Source of the DNA: Pyrodictium delaneyi
Lineage (GTDB): Archaea > Thermoproteota > Thermoprotei_A > Sulfolobales > Pyrodictiaceae
Reading direction: 5' to 3'
DNA length: 32,000 nt
Assembly: GCF_001412615.1 (NCBI RefSeq)
Contig: NZ_CP013011.1
Location: forward strand, 1,440,001 to 1,472,000
In this document: piece after piece, positions 2,759 through 27,376 of the stretch
Layout: each line of letters starts with the position of its first letter
Numbering within the stretch: the stretch's first letter is position 1
Notes under the pieces: model-generated
Seen by the model: the letters and a program-made list of their open reading frames with translations, nothing else
What the model was told of the DNA's origin: nothing
The model's database searches: none
Made by a program: the position numbers and the translations under genes

Positions 2759-2765
2759 GCAAGCC

Positions 2766-4001: not shown

Positions 4002-4003
4002 CC

Positions 4004-14553: not shown

Positions 14554-15041
14554 ACCCAGAACACCCTGGCCCTATCCGCTCCGCAGACTAGATAGAGGTT
14601 AGCACGCTAGCAGGCATTAGCTGCAACATAATCATCACATGCTCCCGCACCGATTATCTAACGACAGGAAGAATAGAATTTTAGGGTGAACGAGCAACTA
14701 ACCCCCGCTCCCAGTGACTAGTTATGTTGCTTCGAATCCCGATTCACAATCCTTGACACCGGGCAGCTAAACGGCCGAAAGCAATAGAGCATGCCAGTAT
14801 CACAAACCCCTCTATGACGCGAGTCAATCCACTGTCCTAGCAATTACTGTGCTGGTTACACTGTCATACCCTACCATTTACAATTCAACTCCCTAAGGCT
14901 AATACGCGGGGACAGGGCAGCATACCAACCCGATGTACTAGCTACACTCTGCTACCTGACACACAAATCTATTTATCATTATTTATAACTTGGATAGCCG
15001 AATGTCGTATATACCTGGAACGCTAAACTATATTGAATACC

Positions 15042-15056
15042 TATATATATATATAT
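15042..15056. repeat. (TA)7.5 microsatellite; also the probable TATA region of the 15100 gene
   Basis: TATATATATATATAT lies 44 nt upstream of GTG 15100. The SD-like GGGGTGAT at 15084-15091 lies between them. Confidence 0.7.
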
Positions 15057-15099
15057 CAACATCATGTATAGTTCACCCGCGCCGGGGTGATACAGCCTG

Positions 15100-16719
15100 G
15101 TGCTCCTACACGGCTCAAAAACTGCAGCAATGCTAACTATAGCACTGATACTAGCCGCGTCATCAACTATGCTTGTAAAGCATTACACTACAGCAACCAT
15201 CTACGAGGATAGGTCTACTATTGTTACGGCAACTCGGCCTCTGATATCGAGAGGCCCACCGGTACTAACGATAGAGGTTAGCGACCAACAAGGAAGACCA
15301 GTAGACTTCTACGCTACGATAAGCATGCCTGCTGCCAACGGCAGTCTCATACACAGTAAGCCAGTGCGCGGTCATGGTCAAGCCACGATAGAGCTAACGA
15401 AGTACGCCGAGGAGCTATCAAGGCTGTTAGACTCGATAAACGCGGCAGGCAAACGGCTCCAAAAGATAGGGATACTAGTACTCCTAACCAGTGTAGAGAT
15501 AGAGAACGGCAAACCAGTAGTAGTCACCGATGCGTTTACCGTACCCATTAGCCTAGACGTGTTGAAGCCAGGCTACCATATAAAGGCAGTACACAAGTTC
15601 ACCCCCAAGGCCAAGACTGAGGCTAAGCAGGCGAAGCCACAGATACAGCTAGCAGCACCAAAACTAGACCTAGCCACGAGCCCCGTAGAGCCCACAGTCA
15701 ACGGACCATGCGTAGACTACGGCTTTAGCGTCACATGCTACTACTGGGAGCTAGACCAGATAGTATACCCTCCAAGCGGCGTAGACAACACCGTAAACAT
15801 GCCCTTCACAATAGTTGATGTAGCCCCAAGCAACGGCATCGACTCGCCAGCACAGAAGACAGAATCTGTGATAGTAAGTAACGTTATACGACTCCAGCTA
15901 TACACTATAGAAGAAGTAGAGATAGGGCTAGTAGTGGACTTCACACTGCTAGGCGGGTCTGTCACGATACCAGGACCAGCATTCGTAGACAGTATAAGAA
16001 ACTATGATACCTCCATCAAGACACTCCTAGACGTACAGTGTACATTCCTGAATACCCTCAACAGCCTGCCTGGGTCAAAGTGCACGCTGAATGGTATCGA
16101 TGCAGCTATCCCCGACTACTATTATGCAGCATACCTGGCTACTGGTGCTGAGGGTAGGCTATGGGTAGCAAAATATAACCTTATAGCTGAGACCTGCGAC
16201 CTGGACGGCATTTGCTACACTGAGAGTATTGGTAGCAACTATGCAGCATACTTTATACCCATCTACAATATCTTCGGGTACTTCGAACCCTACGTGGAGG
16301 TACAGGACGATTACTACAACTATGGTGGCTACCTCTACCGTGTGCTCGACGACTTAAGAAGCAAAATGGAAACAGCCACTATACTGAGCGGATACTATAA
16401 CGATAGACAATTCAACTACTATAGTGTAATCGTTGACGTGAATGGAGAGACGTACATGTCGGTATCTCTCCCCGTAGGCTCCGTAGCGGCTATAGTCTCG
16501 GGACTCAACCTGCCAATGGCTGCTACAACACTCAGCTTTACAGTAACATCTAGCGTGTACTACATTACCGCGTATGAAAGCCTATCGACTGTAACTATAG
16601 ATATAGATACGTCGGTATACCCAGGTATGCAGTATAGCAGTGAAGTCCTGAAGACCGATATGATGGTTGTACCAGATAACGGCGTCTTCACAATCCCGTT
16701 GATGGCCTTAAGACCGTGA
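15100..16719 (+). CDS. Secreted or membrane-anchored hypothetical protein (orphan, Tyr/Asn/Thr-rich)
   Basis: N-terminal hydrophobic anchor AAMLTIALILAASSTMLV. Three closely spaced Cys pairs (CVDYGFSVTC, CTFLNTLNSLPGSKC, CDLDGIC) suggest extracellular disulfides. GC is lower than the flanks. I recognise no family. Confidence 0.65.
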   Translation: MLLHGSKTAAMLTIALILAASSTMLVKHYTTATIYEDRSTIVTATRPLISRGPPVLTIEVSDQQGRPVDFYATISMPAANGSLIHSKPVRGHGQATIELTKYAEELSRLLDSINAAGKRLQKIGILVLLTSVEIENGKPVVVTDAFTVPISLDVLKPGYHIKAVHKFTPKAKTEAKQAKPQIQLAAPKLDLATSPVEPTVNGPCVDYGFSVTCYYWELDQIVYPPSGVDNTVNMPFTIVDVAPSNGIDSPAQKTESVIVSNVIRLQLYTIEEVEIGLVVDFTLLGGSVTIPGPAFVDSIRNYDTSIKTLLDVQCTFLNTLNSLPGSKCTLNGIDAAIPDYYYAAYLATGAEGRLWVAKYNLIAETCDLDGICYTESIGSNYAAYFIPIYNIFGYFEPYVEVQDDYYNYGGYLYRVLDDLRSKMETATILSGYYNDRQFNYYSVIVDVNGETYMSVSLPVGSVAAIVSGLNLPMAATTLSFTVTSSVYYITAYESLSTVTIDIDTSVYPGMQYSSEVLKTDMMVVPDNGVFTIPLMALRP

Positions 16720-16948
16720 CAAGAATAACTTGCTTACACAAAGACATGGCCATCGATGGTACCTAGAACGTAGATGCATACTCTCTTTTTCGCAGCTGTA
16801 TTCCCCGTAAGCCGTTTTGCTTGATGGATAGCTGCCGCGCAGTGAAAGACCGGGCTTATGGCTAGCTAGCCCTATTATCCTGTGCCCATGTTGGAGGACT
16901 GACAAGGATTAATAATATTTAGGCTAATGTGTTAAGCCATTAGTGTGA

Positions 16949-17560
16949 ATGCCTACATGCTCTGAGAGATGTGGCCCCAAGCACCAGCTTAGCGGAGGGT
17001 TGGGTACGATCTTGTCTAGTAGAGTTGTCCTAGTACCGTTCCACCTGGCCAGGCTTGGTAAGAGGATAGTGGGCCTAGACGCGTTCTTCTGGCCAAGCCT
17101 AGAGAAGAGGTACCGGGTAGTTCTCCTAGTACACCCTGCTGAGAGGCTAGGAGAAGCTGCCATAGAAGGCTGTCAACTCCCTGCACAAGTGGATATAGGA
17201 AGTCAAATCGGCGAGATACGGGAAATCGCGCAACGTAAGCCAGAGGGACCTCGGGCACCACGTGCTACTATGCGGCGGAGGTTTGCCTGGTTCCTGTTGC
17301 CACTCAACATGCTCCGCGATATGCTGCGCAGCGAAGCCGAGGAGTTCCAGTTATCGGAGGAGCTGCAAGCTGTGGGCCTTGCCAAGATTCTTAGAGAGTT
17401 GGAGCCTCTCGGGGAGACCCGTTACGCAGTCTTCGAGCCAGTGGAGGAGGATGGCGAGAAGCTGCTCTTACCCGTTGACGATCATATGAGGAGGATATAT
17501 CGGGAGCTAGCACGCCGCGACCAGGGCTATAGAAGGGCAGCAAGCCAGGCAGGATGCTAG
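16949..17560 (+). CDS. Hypothetical protein; only the C-terminal ~97 aa (from ATG 17270) look protein-like
   Basis: MRRRFAWFLLPLNMLRDMLRSEAEEFQLSEELQAVGLAKILRELEPLGETRYAVFEPVEEDGEKLL has ordinary composition. The upstream 107 codons are doubtful. No family recognised. Confidence 0.35.
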   Translation: MPTCSERCGPKHQLSGGLGTILSSRVVLVPFHLARLGKRIVGLDAFFWPSLEKRYRVVLLVHPAERLGEAAIEGCQLPAQVDIGSQIGEIREIAQRKPEGPRAPRATMRRRFAWFLLPLNMLRDMLRSEAEEFQLSEELQAVGLAKILRELEPLGETRYAVFEPVEEDGEKLLLPVDDHMRRIYRELARRDQGYRRAASQAGC

Positions 17561-17580
17561 ACGCATTAGCTTAGGGAGAA

Positions 17581-17685
17581 AGGCGGGTCGGCCAGCAGCC
17601 CCTAGTCGTCATGCCCTGGGGCCCGCAGCCCCCGGGGACCGGCTGCGGAGCCCCTCTGCTTTGCTACATCTCCCCATACCCGCCT
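17581..17685 (+). ncRNA. Candidate structured RNA element or 3' structure (extended GC-rich hairpin, ~105 nt)
   Basis: Nested helices: AGGCGGGT 17581-88 pairs with ACCCGCCT 17678-85; AGCAG 17594-98 pairs with CTGCT 17656-60; GGGGCCCGCAGCC 17618-30 pairs with GGCTGCGG-A-GCCCC 17641-54. It forms a GC-rich patch inside an AT-rich island. Confidence 0.3.
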
Positions 17686-17832
17686 GCCACGGCTAGCACG
17701 TAGTGTGTTGCCGAGGCTATATCTTCTATGCCCGACTGATGGCACCAAACCATTAGGACTCTATTATTGATGGCCTTCTCCTGCGTGCTAACGACGGTCA
17801 CAGCTAATAGTTCTAAGCCTTGAGTAGGCTTC

Positions 17833-17840
17833 CTAAATAT
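17833..17840 (+). promoter_or_regulatory. Candidate TATA box (CTAAATAT) for the GH114-like gene
   Basis: It lies 39 nt upstream of GTG 17879 and 66 nt upstream of ATG 17906. Confidence 0.4.
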
Positions 17841-17878
17841 GCCGCTATCCTTGCCGCACTACCCCTCTGGGTGCTATA

Positions 17879-19028
17879 GTGCGCTATGTTAAAAGACTTA
17901 GAGGCATGAGCGATTTCGCCGTATTCCTCGCCTTGTTAGTGTTGCTCATACTCCTCATCATCCTTGCTTCCCGGGCTAGCCTGCCCTACACCCCTTCTAT
18001 GACTGCCACAGTTACTGTCACCAACACCGCAACATTTGATGAATCTGTAACTAGTACAAGAGCCAATCTGCAGGAGAAAGCTACAACAAAGACGCTAACA
18101 TTTTACAGAGACGCGGACAATGACAGAGACTGTAACAGCTACCGTTACAGTGACAGCCACTATAACGGCTACAAAGATTGCTGCTACTGCCTCCTCCTGG
18201 TGCAGTATCGCTTGCTACTACCTGACAAATATCGAGTCGGAGCCTTTACTGGCCAGGCACTGGACTGTAGCAGTGATAGAGCCAGATGAAGCAAATGACA
18301 CACTGCTAATGGAGGTGAGGAAACGCAGCGACCTGGTTCTCGCCTACCTAAACGCCGGGTATGCCGAGGAGTGGAGGAGCTACTGGGACGTAGTCAAAGA
18401 TAAGCCCTGGATCCACGGCACCACCATGTACGAGGGCGAATACTATGTGGAATATTGGCACACTGAGTGGAGGAAGATACTTGTAGAGTTAGCAACGAGA
18501 TACCTGGCTAGGGGGTTTCAGGGCATCTATCTAGACAACATCGATGCAGCCGAGCTGCTTGCTATAGAGAGACCCTCTTGGGCTCAGGGAGTAGATCCAC
18601 GAGAAGCCATGATAGATCTCGTCTGTAACGTGTCCAATGCCGTCAAAGCCGTAGACCCTAAGGCAAAGGTGTACCTCAATATCGGTGGTGCAGTGAACCT
18701 GCTGTACAATGACCGCCTCCTAGGCTGCATAGATGGGGTGCTACGAGAGGAGCTGTGGAGCCACCCAGGCCCAAGCGGACCCGAGCCACAGGACCCTTGG
18801 GAAACTCTCGCAGCGCTCGACGCGCTAGCCTATGCACACAGCCACGGGAAGACCGTGCTAGTGGCGGATCCCGTGAACGACTTAAAGGAGGCTTGGAGTT
18901 TCTGTGTAAAGGCCTGGAGCCATGGCTTTATTCCAGTTCCGCAGCCAGCCTGGGCTCTTGACTACAGCGCTCCACCTCCACCAGTTTGGTGCAGTTGCAG
19001 CACCTCAATGGTCAAAAGCAACAAGTGA
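17879..19028 (+). pseudogene. Frameshifted gene: signal anchor plus Thr/Val-rich stalk (frame A) joined to a GH114/TM1410-like glycoside-hydrolase TIM-barrel domain (frame B, +1)
   Basis: Frame A (17879..18289) encodes FAVFLALLVLLILLIILA plus TATVTVTNTAT, then degenerates into C/Y/D/R-rich nonsense. Frame B is open from 18099 and continues the stalk (TETVTATVTVTATITATK) into the catalytic domain. The only place to switch is the TTTT run at 18101-18104. Confidence 0.7.
18120..19028 (+). CDS. GH114-like (endo-alpha-1,4-polygalactosaminidase / TM1410-like) hydrolase domain ORF
   Basis: VLAYLNAGYAEEWRSYW, YYVEYWHTEWRKIL and ARGFQGIYLDNIDAAE match my recollection of the GH114 family core (..YlsiGeae.yR.YW.. 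/ ..GfDGvyLDnvD..). There is no signal peptide and no SD before ATG 18120. Confidence 0.7.
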   Translation: MTETVTATVTVTATITATKIAATASSWCSIACYYLTNIESEPLLARHWTVAVIEPDEANDTLLMEVRKRSDLVLAYLNAGYAEEWRSYWDVVKDKPWIHGTTMYEGEYYVEYWHTEWRKILVELATRYLARGFQGIYLDNIDAAELLAIERPSWAQGVDPREAMIDLVCNVSNAVKAVDPKAKVYLNIGGAVNLLYNDRLLGCIDGVLREELWSHPGPSGPEPQDPWETLAALDALAYAHSHGKTVLVADPVNDLKEAWSFCVKAWSHGFIPVPQPAWALDYSAPPPPVWCSCSTSMVKSNK

Positions 19029-19301
19029 GGGTATCATCCGGAGACCATATACCCCGACGCAATATTTATCACTGTTTGATATACTATAGCTAGCTAATTC
19101 GAAACCCTATCTAACTCTAACAAATCCTACTCTAAACGGAATAGAGTTTGTTTTCGCTTTCGCAGGAGCCACGGTGCTTCTTGGCATTTTTGTTTACACG
19201 ACCGTAATACCTCCATACCTTGTACCCTACATAGTTGAGTTGATGTTAAATACTGGACCCCCGGTCCAGGCCCTTCTCCTGCAAGAGGAGGCGAGCAAGC
19301 T

Positions 19302-20438
19302 ATGTGGACTAGCAGGGTAATAGCCATAGCTATAGTTGCTTTCATCGCTATCATAGCTGCCTATATGCTTACAAGCGGAGGGGGAGAACCAGCCTCTACC
19401 GCAACACCTATGACCACCACTATCACAGTCACCAAAACCGCTACGACTACTATGACCACTACCGCGGTCGAGACCACTACAGTGTCAAAGACGGTGACAT
19501 TCACCCAGACTGTGACCCAGACAATACCACAGGTAGAAGAGAAGCTAGTCCTAGTCGATGCGCTAGGCAGAACAGTCGCTGTCGAAAAACCCGCTGAGCG
19601 TGTCGTCGCTCTAGCGCCCTCGATAACCGAGGATATTTGCTCTCTTGGGCTCTGCAGCCGGCTGGTAGGCGTCGACAGCTTCTCCAGGGATGTGCCCGGC
19701 GTCCCCGAGGGCGTCGTGGATGTTGGCGGCTACTGGCAGCCTAGCAGCGAGAAGGTAGCCGAGCTAAAGCCGGACCTAGTACTGGCATGTAGCGGTGTAT
19801 CCGCCCAGGAGCAGATGGCACAGCAGCTCGAGGGGCTCGGTATCCGAGTATTCTTCCTTCGCTGCGACCAGGCCCGGGGCTTCGACGACATCTACTGGGA
19901 TCTACGTGCTATAGCGACACTACTGGGCAAGCCCGAGGCTGCCGATAAGGTGATAGAGCTGATGGAAGAGAGGGTTAGCGCGCTAGAGAAGAAGCTAGCC
20001 AATACTACGAGACCTGGTGTAGCCCTGCTAGTTTACCTCCAGGAGAACGGCGCCTGGGTAGCCGGCGGCGGCACATTCCACGACACAGTGATAGCTGTTG
20101 CTGGCGGCTCTAACGTGTTTCACGGTCTCTACGGCTGGCAGATGGTTGGCTACGAGGAGCTAGTATCCCGGGACCCCGACTACATAATAGTGACCGGTAT
20201 GACTCCTGCTGACTTCAACCGCACGATAGCGCTCGCGGAGAAGACGCCACTACGGGAGACTAAGGCCTTCCAGGAGGGCCATGTATGTGTCCTCTACGGC
20301 GCCGCCACCGACGCGCTTAACAGACCATCACCAGGCGTAGTAGACGCCGCCTATCTGTTGGCCTCGATACTGCACCCCGACCTAGTGGAGCCGCCGGAGA
20401 GGCTAGCCGGCAACTATACTTGTATGCACCAGGGCTAG
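19302..20438 (+). CDS. ABC transporter substrate-binding protein (BtuF/FepB-like, iron-siderophore/cobalamin class), membrane-anchored with a Thr-rich stalk
   Basis: TM anchor VIAIAIVAFIAIIAAYML and stalk TTTITVTKTATTTMTTTAVETTTVSKTVTFTQTVTQT. The binding domain reads RVVALAPSITEDICSLGL...VGVDS...LKPDLVLA. Confidence 0.85.
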   Translation: MWTSRVIAIAIVAFIAIIAAYMLTSGGGEPASTATPMTTTITVTKTATTTMTTTAVETTTVSKTVTFTQTVTQTIPQVEEKLVLVDALGRTVAVEKPAERVVALAPSITEDICSLGLCSRLVGVDSFSRDVPGVPEGVVDVGGYWQPSSEKVAELKPDLVLACSGVSAQEQMAQQLEGLGIRVFFLRCDQARGFDDIYWDLRAIATLLGKPEAADKVIELMEERVSALEKKLANTTRPGVALLVYLQENGAWVAGGGTFHDTVIAVAGGSNVFHGLYGWQMVGYEELVSRDPDYIIVTGMTPADFNRTIALAEKTPLRETKAFQEGHVCVLYGAATDALNRPSPGVVDAAYLLASILHPDLVEPPERLAGNYTCMHQG

Positions 20439-20463
20439 CCCGCGGCAGGGACGTGGCGAAGCC

Positions 20464-21441
20464 TTGCACACGCGGCGTGTTTTTGCAGCACTAGTCGCCT
20501 TGGCGGCACTGCTCTTCCTAGCAGGTCTAGCCGTGGGCCCGGCCGGGTTCCGTAACCCCCTGGACCCTGGGTCCTGGGACCTGGTGCTCAGGCTCCGGCT
20601 GCTCCGGGGTCTTCTCGCTCTAGGCGTGGGAGCGGCGCTGGGGGCGGCCGGGGCCTTCATGCAGTATAGCGTCTCGAACCCATTGGCGAGCCCGAGCATC
20701 CTAGGAGTCTCGCCAGGCGCGCTCGCCGCCAGCGTCCTAGTAATGCTCGCGTGGAGGGGCTCGCCACCGCTCGGAGCCCCTCTCCTTGCCGGGATGCTGG
20801 GAGGCTTCGCTGCCTACGCCGCCTCGGCCGCCCTAGCCGCCCGGCTCGGGTTCACAAGGGTAGGCCTAGTCCTAGCAGGCGTAGCTGTCTCCAGCACACT
20901 CTCCGGCCTCTCGAGCCTTCTCGTTCTCCTGGCTGAGGCGAGGCTCCGTCTACCCGCCTCATTGATGCTTCTCGGCAGCTTCGCCTACGCAACCCCCGAG
21001 ACCGTCTACGTCGCTCTAGCCTCATCTGGTGCCGGCCTAGTCGCGGGACTCGCCCTAGCCCGAGGACTCGACGCAATATCCTACGGAGACGAGACAGCAT
21101 CCGCTATGGGATATAGCCCGGGGCAGATCCGGCTCGCTGCGAGCCTCACCTCAGCCGCCCTGACCTCTGTTTGTGTCTACGCCGCCGGGATAGTGGGGTT
21201 TGTCGGCCTCGTAGCCCCTAACACCGCGCGTCTCCTTGTAGGCGGCCATCCTAGGGCTAGTTTGCCCGCCTCCCTACTCCTCGGCGCAGCCACCACGCTG
21301 GCTGCAGACCTGGCCGGGAGACTCACAGCGCTAGCTCTAGGGCTTGGTGAAGTACCGGCTGGGCTCGTTACAAGCGCCGTGGGGGGTCTGTTCCTGGCCT
21401 ACATGCTCCTTCGGGGAGCCGCTGGGGGAGAAGAACAGTGA
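20464..21441 (+). CDS. FecCD/BtuC-family ABC permease
   Basis: A 325-aa polytopic protein rich in A/L/G, with typical FecCD length and position. It overlaps the ATPase gene by 4 nt. Confidence 0.85.
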   Translation: MHTRRVFAALVALAALLFLAGLAVGPAGFRNPLDPGSWDLVLRLRLLRGLLALGVGAALGAAGAFMQYSVSNPLASPSILGVSPGALAASVLVMLAWRGSPPLGAPLLAGMLGGFAAYAASAALAARLGFTRVGLVLAGVAVSSTLSGLSSLLVLLAEARLRLPASLMLLGSFAYATPETVYVALASSGAGLVAGLALARGLDAISYGDETASAMGYSPGQIRLAASLTSAALTSVCVYAAGIVGFVGLVAPNTARLLVGGHPRASLPASLLLGAATTLAADLAGRLTALALGLGEVPAGLVTSAVGGLFLAYMLLRGAAGGEEQ

Positions 21442-22220
21442 CAGCAGAACTGAAGGCTCTAGGGGTATACGCTAGGCATGGTAGCAAGGTCGTACTGGAA
21501 GACGTCACCATGGAGGCACGGCCCGGCGCAGTCACAGTAGTCCTTGGACCCAACGGTGCGGGGAAGACCACACTCCTCAGAGTGCTTGCTGGCCTCCACG
21601 TCCCGGCCCAGGGCCGTGTCTTCATCGGGAACCGGGACGTCTACAAGCTACCCCGCATGGAGAGAGCCAGGCTTATCGCCTACGTTCCGGCTGTGCTTGA
21701 ATCCCCAGGGCTCGGCCAGACCGTGGAGGAGTTTGTCGCTGCTAGCCGGTACCCGCTCCACCCTGGGCCCCGCCTAGGCCCCCAGCCAGGTGACCTGGAG
21801 GAGGCGCAGAGGCAGCTCCGCCGAGTAGAGGCGGAGAAACTAGCCCAGCAGAGCCTCGGAAAGCTGAGTAGTGGCGAGAAACAACGTACACTCCTAGCCC
21901 ATGCATTAGCCCGTGACGCTGATGTACTGCTCGTAGACGAGCCTACTAGTTTCCTCGACCTGAGGGGCCGGCTGCTCGTCTACAAACTGCTCCACGAGGA
22001 GGCCCGCCGGGGCCGCGTCGTGGTAGCGGCGACCCACGACATGATGCTTGCAGGGCTCTATGCTGACCAGGTGGTTCTCCTTTCCCAGGGCCGGATAGTA
22101 GCCCAGGGACCTCCCAAGGATATACTCCACCCCCGGCTTCTAGAAAGAGTGTTCCAAGTCAAGGTTGAAATGACTAGACTCGGTGACAAGCACATACCGG
22201 TACCTGTAGACATTACATGA
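21438..22220 (+). CDS. ABC transporter ATP-binding protein (FepC/BtuD-like)
   Basis: Walker A GPNGAGKTT, signature LSSGEKQR, Walker B VLLVDEPTSFLD and H-loop ATHDM. Confidence 0.9.
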   Translation: MTAELKALGVYARHGSKVVLEDVTMEARPGAVTVVLGPNGAGKTTLLRVLAGLHVPAQGRVFIGNRDVYKLPRMERARLIAYVPAVLESPGLGQTVEEFVAASRYPLHPGPRLGPQPGDLEEAQRQLRRVEAEKLAQQSLGKLSSGEKQRTLLAHALARDADVLLVDEPTSFLDLRGRLLVYKLLHEEARRGRVVVAATHDMMLAGLYADQVVLLSQGRIVAQGPPKDILHPRLLERVFQVKVEMTRLGDKHIPVPVDIT

Positions 22221-23191
22221 CTGTCGCAACGAGCGTTGCGTGCCCTCGTCGAAGGGGTTCCCGCTTGCCGCGGCTATGTATAGACGTTGCTTGGCTAGAC
22301 CTCGACCTCTCCATGTACCCTAGCTTCGTTTCATCACTCTATAGCTACGCTGAGCCTGGCCGCTGGATAAAGATCCTGGGCTATGGGAGAGGCCACGTTC
22401 TTGTAAAGCGTGGCCCGCTACTATGCTGTGAGGGCCCCGGTTGCGGCACTGAGATGCTCCATTACTTGTCGGGCCGGTGGTGCCTCGACGTTTGCCGCCG
22501 GGGGCTCCTTAGCCGAGCCCTACCGCTGCGGGAGTACTACCTCGGTCTTGTAGTGGCGGCTGCACCGCCCCGGGATCGGCTCCTCGTCGCAGCAGCTGTC
22601 GTGCTGTCGTGGAGGACCCGTTATGCTAGCAATGTTAGGCGCTGGATGCGGATAGTGTTCGACGGGGTCGTTGACGAGGAGACAGGGGAAATAGACTTAG
22701 AGAAAGCCGTGGAGAGGGCCGCGAGGCTCCCGAGTCCACAGCCACGACGGCTAGCCCGGCTTCTACCAGCGCTGGCCAAGGCGCTGGAGGACTTGGACGA
22801 CCCAGTCGCGCTTCGGAGAAAGCTCCTGGAGCTATCCGGCGTGGGGCCAAAGACCGCCGACGCTATACTATTGTTCACCGGTGTCTCGAGCGCAGTAGCG
22901 CCAGGTGATGTGCATCTCCAGCGCTTCGCGGCCAGGGTGCTTGGGCTAGAGAGGCTCCGGCCCGCGTCCAAGGACATGTGCCTGCGCGGGGGCGCCTGGT
23001 GCCCTGAGTGCCCTCTACGCGGCGGCTGTCTCCAGGGACGCATAGTAGAGACATATGGTGGCGCGGCGGGGCTTGTCCAGACCATTGCTTACGTTTATGG
23101 GAGCCTTGGCGGGAAGAGCTGGCGGGAGAAGCTCCCCCGGGTTCTCGAGCAGTTCTACACAAGCTCCGGGGGTACCTCGCCGGGCCGGTAG
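22217..23191 (+). CDS. HhH-GPD superfamily DNA glycosylase with an EndoIII-type [4Fe-4S] cluster loop and a Cys-rich N-terminal extension
   Basis: The helix-hairpin-helix is LSGVGPKTADAILLF, followed by APGDVHLQRF (catalytic Asp). The Fe-S motif CLRGGAWCPECPLRGGC is exactly C-X6-C-X2-C-X5-C. An ATGA overlap joins it to the upstream ABC ATPase. Confidence 0.8.
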   Translation: MTVATSVACPRRRGSRLPRLCIDVAWLDLDLSMYPSFVSSLYSYAEPGRWIKILGYGRGHVLVKRGPLLCCEGPGCGTEMLHYLSGRWCLDVCRRGLLSRALPLREYYLGLVVAAAPPRDRLLVAAAVVLSWRTRYASNVRRWMRIVFDGVVDEETGEIDLEKAVERAARLPSPQPRRLARLLPALAKALEDLDDPVALRRKLLELSGVGPKTADAILLFTGVSSAVAPGDVHLQRFAARVLGLERLRPASKDMCLRGGAWCPECPLRGGCLQGRIVETYGGAAGLVQTIAYVYGSLGGKSWREKLPRVLEQFYTSSGGTSPGR

Positions 23192-23961
23192 GCCTTCCTA
23201 GGCTTCAGCCCAGTACGGCGGAGCAGCTCCTCAACGTGCCGGTATAGGATGACGTACTCGGGGTCAATGTTCTCCGCGAGGGCTGGATGTATGCGGCGCA
23301 GCTTCTCCCGTATCCTCTCGACGCCCTGCTCATCGGTGAAGCTAAGCATGACTGCCGGGTAGACTTCCTCACCCGGCTCGAGCCCGTAGGCGACCAGCAG
23401 CTCTAGGGCTTTTAGCTGGAGCGTCCAGGCCTCTGGCCTGGCCCCCGTCAGCATGGCGAACTCTTCGGGGCTTGTACCCTTAATTGAGACGCGTACCTCT
23501 ATCCCGGCTCCGTGGAAAGAGGCGAGCTTCTGGGCATACTCCTCCCGGGCCCCTATGAGGATCCCGTTAGTCTCCACTACGAAATGAATGCCCTCGGCAG
23601 TTACAGTCTCCATCACCTCGACGAGATGGTCGAAGCCCAGTGTAGGCTCGCCGCCGCTCAGCCTGGCTTGTTTCACGCCGCTCTGCCGGGCCAGCTCGAT
23701 GAGCCTTGACGCCGCCTCGCCTGGCGACAGCAACTTTCCAGCTCTGGGGTTACCCCATGTAAACTTGTGGGCCCAGCAGAACCCACAGCGAAGGATACAG
23801 CCAACCACATCGCCCGTCACTATACCTCCATACCAGCGGTCTCTGCGGAACCGGTAGTAGCGGCGTAGCTGCACCCCGTCTCGTCGTGGCGCCACAACAT
23901 GCTCAAGCCACTCAGCTAGAGCTACAGGGTCATAGCCTCGGCTCCTGCCTTGTTGTACCAT
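23155..23961 (-). CDS. Radical SAM enzyme (unassigned subfamily)
   Basis: The CILRCGFC motif (CX3CX2C) is followed by SGGEPTL (SAM-binding GGE motif). The protein is 268 aa, and its 3' end overlaps the glycosylase gene by 37 nt (convergent). Confidence 0.8.
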   Translation of the reverse strand: MVQQGRSRGYDPVALAEWLEHVVAPRRDGVQLRRYYRFRRDRWYGGIVTGDVVGCILRCGFCWAHKFTWGNPRAGKLLSPGEAASRLIELARQSGVKQARLSGGEPTLGFDHLVEVMETVTAEGIHFVVETNGILIGAREEYAQKLASFHGAGIEVRVSIKGTSPEEFAMLTGARPEAWTLQLKALELLVAYGLEPGEEVYPAVMLSFTDEQGVERIREKLRRIHPALAENIDPEYVILYRHVEELLRRTGLKPRKAYRPGEVPPELV

Positions 23962-24095
23962 ACGGGTCCCAGAGGACTATAGTCGCTGAGAGCCTTTCAT
24001 AATCATCCATAACTGCTATTCCTGCCGGAAGCGACTCTCCTAGAGTATCGCCATGGCTTCTGAACCACGGCAGAGGTCAGTGGAGCGAGGGTCAT

Positions 24096-24103
24096 CTATA
24101 TAG
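24096..24103 (+). promoter_or_regulatory. Candidate TATA box (CTATATAG) driving the structured leader/queDE transcript
   Basis: An A/T octamer 34 nt upstream of the first base of helix P1 (24138). The expected TSS is about 24126-24130. Confidence 0.45.
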
Positions 24104-24137
24104 CGTCTCCCTAGCCCTAAGTAACTCGTTGCTACAT

Positions 24138-24273
24138 GGTGGCGCCCGCTCCCCTCGGGGGCATGAAGACCGGGCTACCAGCCCGCAGGGCCAGAGGCCG
24201 CTTCTCTGGCTCGGCCTCTGGGATGCGGAGGAAACCTCGGGGGCGACCCCCGGGGGCCAGTGCGGGCGCCGCC
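24138..24273 (+). ncRNA. Candidate structured RNA (cis-regulatory leader of queD-queE, or an independent sRNA): closing helix plus four hairpins
   Basis: P1 pairs GGTGGCGCCCGC 24138-49 with GCGGGCGCCGCC 24262-73 (12 bp, one G-U). H1 is 24150-61 (4 bp, CUCG loop). H2 is CGGGC-UACCA-GCCCG at 24171-85. H3 pairs CCAGAGGCCG with CGGCCTCTGG at 24191-24221 (10 perfect bp, 11-nt loop). H4 is 24235-55 (9 bp, one G-U). All G-U pairs become A-C mismatches on the other strand. Confidence 0.45.
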
Positions 24274-24352
24274 TTTATCAACAGTAGAGGCCGCCACTGA
24301 CGCCTTGGCAGAGAAGGAACATCGAGCGCATGCTGCGGGGTGCCACCATAAG

Positions 24353-24709
24353 TTGCCGTTCCGCGTGAAGGCATGCACTATGTTCTCTGCTGCACACCGT
24401 ATCGAGGGACATCCACGCTGTGGAAGGATCCACGGACACAACTACCGTGTATGCATAGTACTCCGCGAGGACAAGCCCATGGGGATAGACCTGGACGAGC
24501 TCGAAGAGTGGCTCCAGGAACACGTCTTCAAGAGGTTCGACCACCAGTACCTCAACAAGCTACTAGCCGAGGACGGAGAGCTACCAACAGTGACCAGCGA
24601 GGACCTCGCCCAGATGATAGCTAGTTGGCTTGAGAAGAGCTACCCGGGGATGGTCGAGCTTGTCGAAGTCTGCGAGACCCCCCAGCTCTGTGTCGAGTAC
24701 ATCCCCTAG
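24353..24709 (+). CDS. queD: 6-carboxy-5,6,7,8-tetrahydropterin synthase (QueD / PTPS family)
   Basis: FSAAHRIEGHPRCGRIHGHNY carries the Cys and His-x-His Zn/catalytic motif. The track ORF starts at 24260, but the conserved fold begins at FRVKACTMFSAAH. An in-frame TTG at 24353 is preceded by the SD-like GGGGTG at 24337-42 and gives a typical ~118-aa QueD. Confidence 0.85.
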   Translation: MPFRVKACTMFSAAHRIEGHPRCGRIHGHNYRVCIVLREDKPMGIDLDELEEWLQEHVFKRFDHQYLNKLLAEDGELPTVTSEDLAQMIASWLEKSYPGMVELVEVCETPQLCVEYIP

Positions 24710-25373
24710 GCTCCGCGTAGTAGAGATCTTCACTAGCCTGCAGGGCGAGGGCCCATTTACGGGTACCCGCAGCGTCTTCGTCCGCCTCGCGGGCTGTGAT
24801 CTACGCTGCCCGTTCTGCGACACCACATACAGCCTAGACCCCCGAACCGGGAAGCCCATAGCCATCGAGGAGATAGCCATTATCGTCGAGAGGGCGCGTC
24901 CTAGCCTGGTCGTAATTACTGGGGGTGAGCCTCTGCTACAGAGGAGAGGGGTCAACGAGCTAGCCAGGCTCCTAACCGAACAGGGGTATAGGATGCAGCT
25001 CGAGACTAATGGCACATTACCCGCACCTAGACCAGGAGAACCCCTCTATGCTGTACACCACGTGGTCTCACCGAAGGATGTACCAGTAGCTGTTGAGGGT
25101 GCGAGGCTCCACCCTTCCTGGGTAGAGGCTTCCCGGGCTACGGGTAGGGTTTGGTTCAAGTTCCTAGCCTCTACGAGGGAGCACGTAGAGGCCATAGCGG
25201 TATACGTGAAGGAGAAAGGTATACCCCGGGACCATGTCTACATTATGCCACTGACAAGGGATGGGATGTCCATGGATGAGCTACTCAAGCTCCACCAGCA
25301 GGTGGCGAAACTGGCACTAGACTATGGGTTCAACTTCAGTCCCCGACTTCACCTCCTTCTCGGACTACGCTAG
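24690..25373 (+). CDS. queE: 7-carboxy-7-deazaguanine synthase (QueE, radical SAM)
   Basis: VEIFTSLQGEGPFTGTRSVFVRLAGCDLRCPFCDT is the QueE N-terminal signature, followed by ITGGEPL. The track ORF begins at 24630. An in-frame GTG at 24690 (overlapping the queD end by 20 nt) is the more plausible start. Confidence 0.85.
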   Translation: MSSTSPRLRVVEIFTSLQGEGPFTGTRSVFVRLAGCDLRCPFCDTTYSLDPRTGKPIAIEEIAIIVERARPSLVVITGGEPLLQRRGVNELARLLTEQGYRMQLETNGTLPAPRPGEPLYAVHHVVSPKDVPVAVEGARLHPSWVEASRATGRVWFKFLASTREHVEAIAVYVKEKGIPRDHVYIMPLTRDGMSMDELLKLHQQVAKLALDYGFNFSPRLHLLLGLR

Positions 25374-26317: not shown

Positions 26318-27376
26318 ATGTCAACCAATGGGAGGAACCCCAGCAGTGGAGGGGAGCCAGAGAAGCACGAGGTAATCATAGTTGGTGCCGGAATAGCTGG
26401 GCTTACTGCCGCACTCTACCTGGCGCGGCAAGGCGTGGATGTACTAGTTGTGAGCAGGGATCTTGGCGGCCAGTTGCTCCAGGCGACACTGATAGAGAAC
26501 TACCCGGGCATAGAAGCCGTCAAAGGCGTAGACCTAGCCATGAAGGTGGAGAGACAGGCTAAGACCTTCGGCGCTAAGACAAGGTACGGCGAACAGATAG
26601 TCAAGATAGAGAGACTAGAGGACGGCACCTTTCTGCTTGAGAGCAGCCGGGGCCGCCGTTACCACGCCGAGGTCGTGATACTAGCCTTCGGCAAGACTCC
26701 CAGGAGGATGGGTGTACCTGGCGAGGAAGAGTACGATGGCCGTGGCGTGAGCTACTGCACCATATGCGACGGGCCTCTGTACCGGGGCAGGAACACTGCT
26801 GTAGTGGGCATAGGCGACCAAGGCCTAGAGGCTGTAGCATTGCTGGCCGGGCTATGCCCAAAGGTCTACTACGTCACGCCGACCAGGCTCTTCGGTGACC
26901 CTGACCTCGTAGCCAGAGTCAGTGGGGCCGAGAACGTAATAGTACTAGAGAACCACGAGCCTGTACGCGTCCTGGGCGACGGGCGCCGCGTCACCGGCCT
27001 AGTAGTACGGGACAAGAAGACCGGCGAGGAAAAGACCCTCGAGGTTGAAGGCATTTTCGTAGAGCTGGGCTACGAGGCTAAGACCGAGTTCGTCAAGCAC
27101 CTCGTCGACTTAAACGAGAACGGCGAGATAATAGTGGACAAGATAGGGAGAACTAAGACCCCAGGCCTCTTCGCTGCCGGCGATGTGACAGACATACCCT
27201 TCAAGCAGGCAGTAATCTCTGCCGGCGAGGGCGCCAAGGCTGCGCTGGCTGCGTTCAATTACTTGCAGAAGAGGCGCGGAAAGAATGTAGAGATACGTGG
27301 CGACTGGAAGAAAACCGGCGCTGTAAAGCCGAAGACGCAGCTGCGCCTAGGCCTCAAGAAAAGGAAGAACGAGTAG
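26318..27376 (+). CDS. trxB: Thioredoxin reductase-like flavoprotein (low-Mr TrxR family)
   Basis: FAD motif VIIVGAGIAGLTAALYLAR, redox-active CTICDG, and C-terminal GLFAAGDV. The NADPH motif is atypical (see findings). The C-terminal tail is Lys-rich. Confidence 0.8.
   Translation: MSTNGRNPSSGGEPEKHEVIIVGAGIAGLTAALYLARQGVDVLVVSRDLGGQLLQATLIENYPGIEAVKGVDLAMKVERQAKTFGAKTRYGEQIVKIERLEDGTFLLESSRGRRYHAEVVILAFGKTPRRMGVPGEEEYDGRGVSYCTICDGPLYRGRNTAVVGIGDQGLEAVALLAGLCPKVYYVTPTRLFGDPDLVARVSGAENVIVLENHEPVRVLGDGRRVTGLVVRDKKTGEEKTLEVEGIFVELGYEAKTEFVKHLVDLNENGEIIVDKIGRTKTPGLFAAGDVTDIPFKQAVISAGEGAKAALAAFNYLQKRRGKNVEIRGDWKKTGAVKPKTQLRLGLKKRKNE

What the first reader, a model, noticed from the sequence alone, without database searches (positions are those of the whole stretch)
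26318..27376. TrxR homologue lacking the NADPH-specificity motif and carrying a Lys-rich tail
The alignment below is by eye against E. coli TrxR as I recall its sequence ([35 protein letters not shown]).
- This protein reads TAVVGIGDQGLEAVALLAGLCPKVYYVTPTRLFGD.
- The GGGNxA(V)EEA motif is replaced by GIGDQGLEA.
- The HRRxxxR 2'-phosphate-binding residues are replaced by TPTRLFG.
- The redox CxxC (CTICDG) and the FAD motifs are intact.
TrxR-like enzymes that do not use NADPH are known: the Thermoplasma acidophilum enzyme, ferredoxin-dependent FFTR and F420-dependent DTR. This protein may likewise use a different reductant. The C-terminal ~35 aa (KRRGKNVEIRGDWKKTGAVKPKTQLRLGLKKRKNE) form an extra, highly basic tail of unknown role.
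Basis: partly seen in the sequence, partly recalled or inferred. Interest (0 to 1): 0.35.

Follow-up and report, generated by a model that had tools for sequence, protein, structure and literature searches.

The report
Archaeal thioredoxin reductase with flavin-stacking tail
This gene encodes a thioredoxin-reductase-type flavoenzyme that has lost the NADPH-recognition loop and carries the same C-terminal Asp-Trp tail that caps the flavin in a cyanobacterial ferredoxin-dependent enzyme, so it probably takes electrons from ferredoxin, though nobody has tested this archaeal family.

Summary
**Observation:** confirmed. ORF 26318-27376 (+) encodes a 352-aa low-molecular-weight TrxR homologue with these features:
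- Intact FAD motifs and a CTIC redox pair.
- TPTRLFG in place of HRRxxxR.
- A 35-aa basic tail.

- GIGDQG still fits GxGxxG, so the Rossmann core is retained here.
- The tail is not an oddity. G321-x7-D329-W330 is conserved in essentially all close homologues across Thermoproteota, including cultured Sulfolobales, and in Nitrososphaerota.
- The tail aligns residue for residue with the C-terminus of Gloeobacter FFTR/DTR (...KPDWAH). In that enzyme W315 stacks on the partner subunit's FAD, and the tail is required for ferredoxin binding.

**Caveat:** the DW tail also occurs in many DPANN and CPR TrxRs with intact HRRxxxR, so on its own it does not prove NADPH independence.

**New here:** a further roughly 20 residues after the Trp, consisting of a charged linker plus a G-phi-x-phi-K-phi end. 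This extension is specific to the archaeal family and is under purifying selection.

**Best reading (about 0.5):** a ferredoxin-dependent, DTR-like thioredoxin/PDO reductase.

**Main rival:** NADH use.

**Verdict:** a new variant of a known kind, of moderate interest.

The parts
26318..27376 (+). Complete gene for a 352-aa low-molecular-weight thioredoxin-reductase-family flavoprotein (stop codon included).
   Evidence: ORF list. Pfam Pyr_redox_2 at 2.7e-36. NCBIfam TRX_reduct at 291 bits, below its 343-bit cutoff. PDB hits to AhpF and archaeal TrxRs at about 1e-57 to 1e-59. AF2 model with mean pLDDT 85.8 and Foldseek hits to the TrxR fold.
26384..26401 (+). FAD-binding GxGxxG motif (GAGIAG, residues 23-28).
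   Evidence: G23, A24, A27 and G28 are invariant and G25 is nearly invariant (at least 90%) in the 26-sequence family alignment. Coordinates checked.
26756..26767 (+). Redox-active CxxC (C147-T-I-C150).
   Evidence: C147 and C150 are invariant in the family and align with the CxxC of the solved TrxRs and AhpF.
26807..26824 (+). Second Rossmann signature, GIGDQG (residues 164-169). It still fits GxGxxG here but is degenerate in the wider family (GWGLHN, GEGEPG, GSAEYA).
   Evidence: 68 of the 119 close homologues fail G.G..[GAS]. Positions 165, 167 and 168 are among the 11 that discriminate this family from the HRR+ class.
26876..26896 (+). Loop at the position of the NADPH 2'-phosphate motif HRRxxxR, here TPTRLFG (residues 187-193). 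It has no basic cluster and no acidic beta2-end residue.
   Evidence: Alignment to Sulfolobus TrxB3 and AhpF. P188 is nearly invariant in the family. All PDB alignments of this segment stop at T187.
27170..27187 (+). FAD 'GD' motif, FAAGDV (residues 285-290).
   Evidence: A286, A287, G288, D289 and V290 are invariant and F285 is nearly invariant (at least 90%).
27269..27373 (+). C-terminal extension beyond the last TrxR helix (residues 318-352). K318-E352 is net +11; G321-E352 is net +8.
   Evidence: Last helix is H298-319 in the AF2 model, and tail pLDDT falls from 62 to 35. The tail is conserved in 118 of 119 close homologues, and the exception is a frameshift. Codon comparison shows 12 synonymous and 4 non-synonymous differences, matching the core ratio.
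27302..27307 (+). D329-W330, the conserved Asp-Trp of the tail. It is positionally equivalent to D314-W315 of Gloeobacter FFTR/DTR, whose Trp stacks on the re-face of the partner monomer's FAD.
   Evidence: D and W are invariant in the 54-sequence tail alignment. The tail profile aligns through ...KPDWAH of 5j60/6xtf and through no other PDB tail. The role of W315 is taken from PMC8154056 and PMC12796991.
27341..27355 (+). Terminal hydrophobic element LRLGL (residues 342-346). This is the Thermoproteota-specific G/x-phi-x-phi-[KR]-phi end of the tail. GvFFTR has no counterpart.
   Evidence: A phi-x-phi motif at least 8 residues after the Trp occurs in 106 of 118 close homologues. The median length after the Trp is 20 residues, against 4-5 in other DW-tailed proteins.

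Best explanation
**What it is**
The gene encodes a homodimeric FAD/CxxC disulfide reductase of the low-molecular-weight thioredoxin-reductase fold. It belongs to an uncharacterised archaeal family (Thermoproteota, Nitrososphaerota) that is built like the 'deeply rooted' or cyanobacterial-type ferredoxin-dependent flavin thioredoxin reductase (DTR/FFTR).

**Proposed mechanism**
1. The pseudo-NADPH domain no longer recognises NADPH.
2. In the resting state, the C-terminal tail of one subunit reaches across the dimer, and W330 stacks on the re-face of the other subunit's isoalloxazine. This shields the flavin and tunes its potential.
3. Reduced ferredoxin docks against the tail and the disulfide domain and delivers two successive electrons to the FAD. 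In this organism 2-oxoacid:ferredoxin oxidoreductases make reduced ferredoxin.
4. The tail then swings out, the CxxC domain rotates over the flavin and is reduced, and it passes the electrons to a thioredoxin or PDO.

**Shown and inferred**
- Shown: the fold, the intact FAD and CxxC motifs, the loss of HRRxxxR, and the sequence equivalence of D329-W330 with D314-W315 of GvFFTR.
- Inferred: stacking in trans, ferredoxin as the donor, and the identity of the disulfide substrate.
- The role of the extra 20-residue basic extension ending in phi-x-phi is a guess. It may be electrostatic capture of an acidic [4Fe-4S] ferredoxin, or strand docking on the partner subunit.
For: **Fold and catalytic motifs**
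- Shown: **The NADPH site is degraded**
- HRRxxxR is replaced by TPTRLFG, with a nearly invariant Pro at the R176 position and no Glu/Asp at the beta2 end.
- None of the 119 close homologues is NADPH-like or NADH-like by motif, and 68 of the 119 have also lost GxGxxG.
- 6 of the 11 positions that discriminate this family from HRR+ relatives lie in the 28-residue cofactor segment (binomial P = 8e-5).
- The loop after T187 matches nothing in the PDB.

**The tail matches GvFFTR**
- D and W are invariant 11-12 residues after the last helix.
- A profile of the tail aligns end to end with KQAVVAAGDGCIAAMAIDRFLNSRKAIKPDWAH of 5j60/6xtf. Every other PDB hit to that profile (TrxR or AhpF) stops before the tail.
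- In GvFFTR that Trp stacks on the opposite monomer's FAD. Deleting the tail abolishes ferredoxin binding and activity and destabilises the semiquinone (PMC8154056, PMC12796991, PMC8469568).

**The tail is under selection**
- Synonymous to non-synonymous change is 12:4 in the tail and 155:53 in the core.
- The only apparent exception, H. butylicus, is a 1-nt frameshift with the tail intact out of frame.

**Physiological plausibility**
- The window encodes a four-subunit 2-oxoacid:ferredoxin oxidoreductase at 1767-4924.
- Thermoproteota also carry a separate HRR+ tail-less NTR type, which fits two reductases with different donors (3f8p).
- No DW tail occurs among the 25 AhpF/NADH-like representatives.
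Against: - No biochemical data exist for any family member.
- This protein, and the other Pyrodictiaceae, keep G-x-G-x-x-G, so a dinucleotide could still bind.
- Lack of HRRxxxR did not stop Thermoplasma TrxR from using NADH (PMC6262447).
- The DW tail coexists with intact GGGNSA plus HRRxxxR plus CxxC in 105 of 116 DPANN/CPR proteins, and in 26 of 52 NADPH-like representatives. The tail alone is therefore not diagnostic of ferredoxin dependence.
- Overall the family is more similar to archaeal NTR and AhpF (about 296 and 277 bits) than to GvFFTR (239 bits) or clostridial FFTR (172 bits). The FFTR-like features may be ancestral or convergent and need not mark a shared function.
- The AF2 monomer places the tail with low confidence (pLDDT 62 to 35), and a dimer model could not be run.
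- No ferredoxin, Trx or PDO gene is linked to the gene, and the neighbourhood is not conserved beyond the Pyrodictiaceae.
Confidence: 0.5

Rival explanations
1. It is an NADH-dependent, or a weak dual NAD(P)H-dependent, thioredoxin reductase. On this view the retained GxGxxG Rossmann core binds the dinucleotide, only 2'-phosphate discrimination has been lost, and the Trp tail acts as a removable flavin cap, like the C-terminal aromatic residue in ferredoxin-NADP+ reductases.
For: - GIGDQG fits GxGxxG, and the beta-alpha-beta segment still aligns with genuine NTRs up to T187.
- Thermoplasma TrxR lacks HRRxxxR yet uses NADH (PMC6262447).
- Desulfovibrio TR3 and Thermotoga TR prefer NADH (PMC5627308).
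- DW tails coexist with complete NADPH motifs in DPANN and CPR enzymes. A stacked Trp therefore need not exclude a nicotinamide donor.
Against: - There is no acidic residue at the beta2 end (T187), whereas Thermoplasma TrxR and AhpF have Glu there.
- 0 of the 119 close homologues have an acidic residue at that position.
- GxGxxG is lost in 68 of the 119 family members, so dinucleotide binding is not a conserved property of the family.
- Bulky Ile/Trp replaces the second Gly, and a nearly invariant Pro replaces R176.
Confidence: 0.25
2. It is not primarily a thioredoxin reductase. On this view it is a flavoprotein disulfide reductase or oxidase with another physiological substrate, such as direct reduction of a peroxiredoxin or PDO, a sulfur or polysulfide species, or O2. 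The basic tail would serve partner or surface binding unrelated to ferredoxin.
For: - The score is below the curated TRX_reduct equivalog cutoff (291 against 343 bits), and the best single-sequence PDB hits are the AhpF catalytic core.
- The CxxC is CTIC/CAIC, not the CATC that is about 97% conserved in the HRR+ class.
- No Trx gene is nearby.
- From my own recollection, not verified here: Sulfolobus TrxR paralogues have been reported as NAD(P)H oxidases.
Against: - It has no AhpF N-terminal domain.
- The CxxC, the FAD motifs and the two-domain architecture that define Trx-reducing enzymes are invariant.
- The closest structural analogue carrying the same tail, GvFFTR, is a bona fide Trx reductase (PMC8154056).
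Confidence: 0.15
3. It is an F420H2-dependent thioredoxin reductase, like Methanocaldococcus DFTR.
For: DFTR also lacks HRRxxxR (PMC6262447, PMC5627308).
Against: - I found no evidence of F420 metabolism in the window.
- The family is spread over Thermoproteota, which (from my own knowledge) are not known as F420-rich.
- The tail motif links it to the ferredoxin-dependent enzyme, not to DFTR.
Confidence: 0.03

Closest known systems
Gloeobacter violaceus DTR, the cyanobacterial-type ferredoxin-dependent flavin thioredoxin reductase (GvFFTR; PDB 5j60, 6xtf)
   Same: - Low-molecular-weight TrxR fold with FAD and CxxC.
- HRRxxxR absent.
- A C-terminal tail after the last helix with the same Asp-Trp, at an aligned position (...KPDWAH against ...IRGDWKK).
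- The tail of GvFFTR is required for ferredoxin binding and activity (PMC8154056).
   Different: - Only about 32% identity (Foldseek), and it is not the best-scoring relative (239 bits against 296 for Sulfolobus TrxB3).
- The GvFFTR tail ends 2 residues after the Trp. This protein has 22 more residues, consisting of a charged linker and a conserved phi-x-phi-[KR]-phi end.
- The host is an anaerobic hyperthermophilic archaeon, whose ferredoxins are (from my own knowledge) [4Fe-4S]-type, not plant-type [2Fe-2S].
- The published literature describes the tail as unique to cyanobacterial FFTRs.
Sulfolobus (Saccharolobus) solfataricus TrxR-B3, an NADPH-dependent archaeal TrxR (PDB 3f8p, 3f8r)
   Same: The best profile hit in the PDB (296 bits, about 37% identity). 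It shares the fold, the FAD motifs, the CxxC, a GxGDxx-type Rossmann motif and a ...KKGK start to the C-terminus.
   Different: It has HRRDTFK and binds NADP. It ends at residue 323, before any DW. It represents the second, canonical TrxR paralogue of Thermoproteota.
Ss-TrxB2, listed as 'putative non-NADPH TR' (WP_010923960.1) in Valette et al. 2017, and the orthologues in S. acidocaldarius (Q4J9L4) and S. tokodaii (Q975H4)
   Same: The Sulfolobales orthologues retrieved here are 49-55% identical to the window protein's family. They lack HRRxxxR and carry ...VDWKAEKKK...SFRL tails. The literature has already flagged a Sulfolobus paralogue as probably NADPH-independent (PMC5627308).
   Different: - I could not confirm that the WP_010923960.1 accession belongs to this family.
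- No donor has been identified, and the tail is not discussed in the papers I could read.
- The Sulfolobales tails are shorter and less basic (net about +4).
Clostridial FFTR (PDB 6gna, 6gnc)
   Same: A TrxR-fold enzyme that is independent of NAD(P)H and dependent on ferredoxin, using 2x[4Fe-4S] ferredoxin. That is the kind of ferredoxin expected in this archaeon.
   Different: It has no C-terminal Trp tail, is about 288 aa long, and is much more distant (172 bits).
AhpF C-terminal (TrxR-like) module (PDB 1fl2, 1hyu)
   Same: The highest single-sequence similarity (2.5e-59, about 36% identity), particularly in the last helix.
   Different: AhpF has an N-terminal double Trx-fold domain and a Glu at the beta2 end for NADH, and it has no tail.
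DvTRi from Desulfovibrio vulgaris (PDB 5nii)
   Same: An experimentally NAD(P)H-independent TrxR whose donor is unknown (PMC5627308).
   Different: TRi proteins carry a TQ/NGK motif in place of HRRD, whereas this protein has TPTR. It is a distant relative (163 bits) and no DW tail was detected.

Membership tests
Low-molecular-weight thioredoxin reductase superfamily (two Rossmann domains, FAD, CxxC) | N-terminal FAD GxGxxG motif and C-terminal GD motif | tested here: met
   GAGIAG (residues 23-28) and FAAGDV (residues 285-290) are conserved in the family, with most positions invariant and G25 and F285 at 90% or more. Pfam Pyr_redox_2 at 2.7e-36.
Low-molecular-weight thioredoxin reductase superfamily (two Rossmann domains, FAD, CxxC) | Redox-active CxxC in the second domain | tested here: met
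   C147 and C150 are invariant and align with the catalytic cysteines of solved TrxRs.
Low-molecular-weight thioredoxin reductase superfamily (two Rossmann domains, FAD, CxxC) | Two-domain TrxR fold | tested here: met
   AF2 mean pLDDT 85.8. The top Foldseek hits are all TrxR or AhpF, at E about 1e-34 to 1e-38.
NCBIfam TIGR01292 thioredoxin-disulfide reductase (equivalog) | Score at or above the curated cutoff of 343.45 bits | tested here: not met
   291.4 bits.
NADPH-dependent thioredoxin reductase (NTR) | GxGxxA/G pyrophosphate-binding motif in the second domain | tested here: met
   GIGDQG in this protein. The motif is lost in 68 of the 119 close homologues.
NADPH-dependent thioredoxin reductase (NTR) | HRRxxxR 2'-phosphate-binding motif | tested here: not met
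   TPTRLFG lies opposite HRRDTFK of 3f8p and HRRDGFR of E. coli. 0 of the 119 close homologues are NADPH-like.
NADPH-dependent thioredoxin reductase (NTR) | NADPH-dependent reduction of FAD and Trx | not testable with these tools
   Requires an enzyme assay.
NADH-type TrxR / AhpF-like | Acidic residue at the end of beta2 that binds the ribose 2'-OH | tested here: not met
   T187 lies where AhpF (LLEF) and Thermoplasma TrxR (IIEY) have Glu. 0 of the 119 close homologues are acidic at that position.
AhpF | N-terminal double thioredoxin-fold domain | tested here: not met
   The protein starts 16 residues before the FAD motif, and the match covers only AhpF residues about 210-517.
DTR / cyanobacterial-type FFTR | Absence of the NADPH-binding HRRxxxR motif | tested here: met
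   The absence in GvDTR is stated in PMC5627308.
DTR / cyanobacterial-type FFTR | [quoted passage not shown] | tested here: met
   D329-W330 is invariant in the family. The tail profile aligns to ...AIKPDWAH of 5j60 and to no other PDB tail.
DTR / cyanobacterial-type FFTR | [quoted passage not shown] | not testable with these tools
   The monomer AF2 model gives tail pLDDT of 62 to 35. No coordinates or ligands were available.
DTR / cyanobacterial-type FFTR | Ferredoxin-dependent, NAD(P)H-independent Trx reduction | not testable with these tools
   Requires biochemistry. The only circumstantial evidence is a 2-oxoacid:ferredoxin oxidoreductase in the window.
DTR / cyanobacterial-type FFTR | Closest overall sequence relationship is to DTR proteins | tested here: not met
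   5j60 ranks about 20th in the PDB profile search (239 bits), behind archaeal NTRs and AhpF.
Clostridial FFTR | Short (about 290 aa), tail-less, NAD(P)H-independent TrxR | tested here: not met
   The protein is 352 aa and has a tail. 6gna scores only 172 bits.
TRi (Desulfovibrio type) | TQ/NGK motif in place of HRRD | tested here: not met
   The sequence is TPTR. The motif definition comes from PMC5627308.
TrxR-like ferredoxin-NADP+ reductase | No CxxC; NADPH site present; aromatic C-terminal extension over the flavin | tested here: not met
   The CxxC is present and the NADPH motif is absent. Only the aromatic C-terminal extension is shared.
F420-dependent TrxR (DFTR) | F420H2-dependent activity | not tested
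   I know of no sequence signature to test. It would need an assay and F420 gene content from the whole genome.

The most novel reading that the evidence does not exclude
The Asp-Trp tail could be an ancient, widespread module of low-molecular-weight TrxRs that adapts the flavin for one-electron donors. It is found in Thermoproteota, Nitrososphaerota, DPANN archaea, CPR bacteria and cyanobacterial FFTR. [quoted passage not shown] Its extended basic tail would recruit an archaeal [4Fe-4S]/[3Fe-4S] ferredoxin, or another low-potential partner, and it would be the main link between ferredoxin-based catabolism and thiol redox control in hyperthermophilic Crenarchaeota.
Probability: 0.3. Interest if true: 0.65.

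Novelty: new variant of a known kind. Interest (0 to 1): 0.45.

Why it matters
**The open question.** How thioredoxin and PDO systems are reduced in anaerobic, ferredoxin-centred hyperthermophilic archaea is not settled. Only NADPH-type enzymes have been characterised in Crenarchaeota (Sulfolobus TrxB3, Aeropyrum). If this family is ferredoxin-dependent, it would tie thiol redox control directly to 2-oxoacid oxidation. It would also extend the FFTR concept from clostridia and cyanobacteria to archaea.

**A correction to the literature.** The DW flavin-stacking tail is described as unique to cyanobacterial FFTRs. This work shows it is widespread in archaea and CPR bacteria, sometimes alongside an intact NADPH site. 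That changes how the tail should be interpreted.

**It can be tested.** Orthologues exist in genetically tractable Sulfolobus acidocaldarius (Q4J9L4) and in S. tokodaii (Q975H4).

Tried and rejected
1. **Synteny as a clue to the partner.** The window neighbours are prephenate dehydratase and GcvH on the opposite strand, with QueD/QueE and nuoA-D nearby. That order is shared only with Hyperthermus. The Thermofilum locus is unrelated, and no Trx, PDO or ferredoxin gene is adjacent. Uninformative.
2. **AF2 monomer model.** The core is confident but the tail is not, so it cannot place W330.
4. **Foldseek against the PDB.** It returns only generic TrxR/AhpF folds and nothing for the tail.
5. **Genome-collection scan with the family alignment.** I could not test whether Pyrodictiaceae also carry a canonical NTR.
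6. **The hypothesis that the DW tail is specific to HRR-less enzymes.** Rejected: 26 of 52 NADPH-like representatives and 105 of 116 DPANN/CPR proteins have both.
7. **A first column-based HRR classification.** It was wrong because of gap columns. I redid it with fixed offsets from GxGxxG.
8. **Papers I could not obtain.** The PNAS 2018 FFTR paper, the Mol Plant 2017 DTR paper and the Sulfolobus TrxR biochemistry papers were not held.
9. **The Ss-TrxB2 accession.** I could not confirm that WP_010923960.1 is a family member.
10. **Rfam scan of the window.** No hits.
Full report
**1.

The ORF at 26318-27376 on the + strand runs from ATG to TAG and encodes 352 residues.
- GAGIAG, the FAD GxGxxG motif, at residues 23-28.
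- CTIC at residues 147-150.
- GIGDQG at residues 164-169.
- TPTRLFG at residues 187-193.
- FAAGDV at residues 285-290.
- The tail KRRGKNVEIRGDWKKTGAVKPKTQLRLGLKKRKNE at residues 318-352, with 14 K/R against 3 D/E.

HMMER alignment to Sulfolobus TrxB3, which was crystallised with NADP, places KVYLIHRRDTFKA opposite KVYYVTPTRLFGD. Alignment to AhpF places VTLLEFAPEMKA there. So both the basic cluster of NADPH enzymes and the Glu of NADH enzymes are absent.

The protein is a genuine member of the low-molecular-weight TrxR fold:
- Pfam Pyr_redox_2 matches at 2.7e-36.
- PDB hits to AhpF and archaeal TrxRs reach about 1e-57 to 1e-59.
- The AlphaFold model has mean pLDDT 85.8, and its Foldseek hits are exclusively TrxR or AhpF.
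- It nevertheless scores below the curated TRX_reduct equivalog cutoff, at 291 against 343 bits.

**2.

The closest relatives are Pyrodictiaceae: Hyperthermus butylicus at 84% identity and Pyrofollis japonicus at 82%. At about 50% identity come Thermofilum, Infirmifilum, Sulfolobaceae and Nitrososphaerales.

In a 26-sequence alignment the catalytic motifs are invariant, and so is part of the tail:
- G321 is invariant.
- D329 and W330 are conserved in at least 90% of sequences.
- P188, at the position of the first Arg of HRR, is nearly invariant.

The single sequence lacking DW is the Hyperthermus entry, and it is a 1-nt frameshift. In the genome record the adjacent frame reads KGDWKKTGRVKPKTQMRLGLKKREG*.

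The tail evolves under the same constraint as the core. Between the window and Hyperthermus, the tail shows 12 synonymous against 4 non-synonymous codon differences, and the core shows 155 against 53.

Other clades range from 0 to +8. The conserved elements are these:
- [KR]-G-x(6-7)-D-W-[KR].
- About ten charged residues further on, a hydrophobic G/x-phi-x-phi-[KR]-phi terminus (LRLGL, GLSIKL, GLFLKL, FKLGF), present in 106 of 118 close homologues.

**3. The tail has a known counterpart**

In Gloeobacter DTR, now called cyanobacterial-type FFTR, the literature reports three things (PMC8154056, PMC12796991, PMC8469568):
- Deleting Ser307-His317 abolishes ferredoxin binding and activity.
- The same deletion destabilises the semiquinone.

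I built a profile of only the last helix plus the DW tail from 54 diverse members and searched the PDB with it. Of the 43 hits, only 5j60/6xtf aligned through the tail: KQAVVAAGDGCIAAMAIDRFLNSRK---AIKPDWAH, with D-W on D-W. All other TrxR and AhpF chains stopped at or before profile position 28. Independent full-length alignments agree:
- P0130 residues 2-306, ending on its Trp, align to chain positions 9-318.
- P0173 residues 33-342 align to chain positions 9-320.

D329-W330 of the window protein is therefore positionally equivalent to D314-W315 of GvFFTR. The papers I could read call this tail unique to cyanobacterial FFTRs and never mention archaea.

**4. How far is the NAD(P)H site really lost?**

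In this protein the beta-alpha-beta core is intact. GIGDQG fits GxGxxG, and the segment still aligns with bona fide NTRs. Every alignment stops at T187, however, and the loop PTRLFGDPD matches nothing in the PDB.

At family level the picture is more decisive.
- I used fixed offsets from the glycine motif. None of the 119 close homologues has an NADPH-like basic pattern or an acidic beta2-end residue, and 68 of the 119 have also lost GxGxxG (GWGLHN, GWGHHG, GEGEPG and others).
- I compared 70 sequences from this family with 70 from DW-tailed relatives that keep HRRxxxR. Six of the 11 discriminating positions (165, 167, 168, 185, 189, 192) fall in the 28-residue cofactor segment (binomial P = 8e-5).

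Selection for pyridine-nucleotide binding has therefore been relaxed or redirected specifically at that site.

**5. An important caveat**

An exhaustive profile search of 1.84 billion representatives, followed by motif classification, showed that the DW tail is not confined to HRR-less proteins:

| Representative class | With DW tail |
|---|---|
| NADPH-like | 26 of 52 |
| Neither motif | 20 of 65 |
| AhpF/NADH-like | 0 of 25 |

- A targeted search found 105 of 116 proteins combining HRRxxxR, CxxCD and a DW tail. They come from Aenigmarchaeota, Nanoarchaeia, Kuenenbacteria and other Patescibacteria.
- Some DW-tailed, HRR+ proteins even lack the CxxC.
- None of these proteins has been characterised.

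The tail therefore looks like an old and widespread module. By itself it does not prove NAD(P)H independence. A stacked aromatic residue and a nicotinamide site coexist in TrxR-like ferredoxin-NADP+ reductases, a parallel the FFTR authors themselves draw (PMC8154056).

**6. Two TrxR types in Thermoproteota**

Organism-labelled loci show both types in the phylum:
- HRR+ tail-less enzymes: L033, which resembles Sulfolobus TrxB3, and L051 from Acidilobaceae, with CSVC and HRRREFR.
- HRR-less DW-tailed enzymes: L003 and L007.

The tailed family is present in cultured Sulfolobales, namely S. acidocaldarius (Q4J9L4), S. tokodaii (Q975H4), Acidianus and Stygiolobus. It also occurs in Vulcanisaeta, Nitrosocaldus and Marsarchaeota. 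All of these lack HRR and have ...VDWKAEKKK...SFRL-type tails.

Valette et al. list a Sulfolobus 'Ss-TrxB2' as a 'putative non-NADPH TR' (PMC5627308). I could not confirm that its accession belongs to this family.

**7. Context**

- The gene stands alone. Prephenate dehydratase lies upstream and GcvH downstream, both on the opposite strand. QueD, QueE and a radical-SAM gene lie further upstream, and nuoA, nuoB and nuoC further downstream.
- That order is shared with Hyperthermus but not with Thermofilum.
- The window also encodes a four-subunit 2-oxoacid:ferredoxin oxidoreductase at 1767-4924. The organism therefore produces reduced ferredoxin, but at 21 kb away this is not linkage evidence.

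**8. Interpretation**

The best-supported reading is an archaeal enzyme built on the DTR/FFTR plan:
1. FAD and CxxC provide the chemistry.
2. The pseudo-NADPH domain is no longer tuned for NADPH.
3. W330 caps the partner's flavin.
4. A low-potential one-electron donor, most plausibly ferredoxin, reduces the flavin. The tail is then displaced so that the disulfide domain can be reduced and pass electrons to Trx or PDO.

The core of the window protein is mildly acidic (pI 6.2, net -2), and nearly all the positive charge sits in the tail (net +8 over residues 321-352). That would suit capture of an acidic ferredoxin, but this is inference.

I give the ferredoxin-dependent reading about 0.5, NADH or weak NAD(P)H use about 0.25, a different physiological substrate about 0.15, and F420 about 0.03.

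The limits are plain:
- There is no biochemistry for any member.
- The tail is placed with low confidence in the monomer model.
- The family is closer overall to archaeal NTR and AhpF than to GvFFTR.

**9. Novelty and score**

NAD(P)H-independent TrxRs and the Trp tail are both known, and a Sulfolobus paralogue has been flagged as 'putative non-NADPH'. This is therefore not categorically new. Three things are new:
- The recognition that a large archaeal family carries the FFTR-type DW tail.
- The additional conserved extension that this family has.
- The finding that the DW tail is much more widespread than published, and sometimes coexists with an intact NADPH site.

I rate it a new variant of a known kind, with interest 0.45.

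Noticed in passing
L083:4001-5075 (Hyperthermus butylicus CP000493.1, 162184-163258): The annotated TrxR homologue (P0012) ends ...IRVTGRRLVGLSQKRR*. The adjacent frame reads KGDWKKTGRVKPKTQMRLGLKKREG*. This is a 1-nt indel relative to the window (AGGGTGACTGG against CGTGGCGACTGG). It is either a sequencing error or a very recent frameshift that truncates the conserved tail in the deposited genome.
   Followed up: yes
Proteins P0130, P0133, P0138, P0200, P0278-P0393 (not in the window): A large class of TrxRs from DPANN archaea and CPR/Patescibacteria combines intact GGGNSA, HRRxxxR and CxxC with a DW tail (105 of 116). The published view that the Trp tail is unique to cyanobacterial FFTRs is therefore too narrow. 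None of these proteins has been characterised.
   Followed up: partly
Proteins P0161, P0233, P0247, P0267, P0218, P0252 (not in the window): These TrxR-fold proteins have an intact NADPH motif and a DW tail but no CxxC (SVAA, SVSE, SAVG and others). They might be ferredoxin-NADP+ reductase-like enzymes built on the same tail.
   Followed up: no
window 1767-4924 (+): A four-gene 2-oxoacid:ferredoxin oxidoreductase cluster: gamma (POR domain), delta (two-[4Fe-4S] Fer4 domain, 2405-2758), alpha (POR_N/PFOR_II) and beta (TPP_enzyme_C). A DAO-family FAD oxidoreductase lies upstream at 325-1677 on the minus strand.
   Followed up: partly
window 8637-13067 (+): A very long ORF of 1476 aa in the most GC-rich part of the window (GC 0.64-0.68) with no Pfam match at E <= 1e-5. 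It could be a large surface or S-layer-type protein. Several shorter antisense ORFs overlap it and are probably spurious.
   Followed up: no
window 14000-20000: A stretch with lower GC (0.47-0.57, against about 0.59-0.68 in most other parts of the window). It contains ORFs with no Pfam hits (15100-16719, 16949-17560, 17879-18289) and a GH114-family glycoside hydrolase (18120-19028). An iron-siderophore/B12-type ABC transporter follows (19302-22220). It may be a horizontally acquired island.
   Followed up: no
window 23155-25373: A cluster for 7-deazaguanine (archaeosine precursor) synthesis: a radical-SAM gene (23155-23961, minus strand), QueD/PTPS (24260-24709) and a QueE-like radical-SAM gene (24630-25373). 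QueD and QueE overlap by about 80 nt as listed, so the true starts are probably downstream of the listed ones. The same cluster precedes the TrxR gene in Hyperthermus.
   Followed up: partly
window 1-32000: No Rfam family reaches its gathering score anywhere in the 32-kb window, so no rRNA, riboswitch or other curated RNA family was detected. A dedicated tRNA scan was not run.
   Followed up: yes
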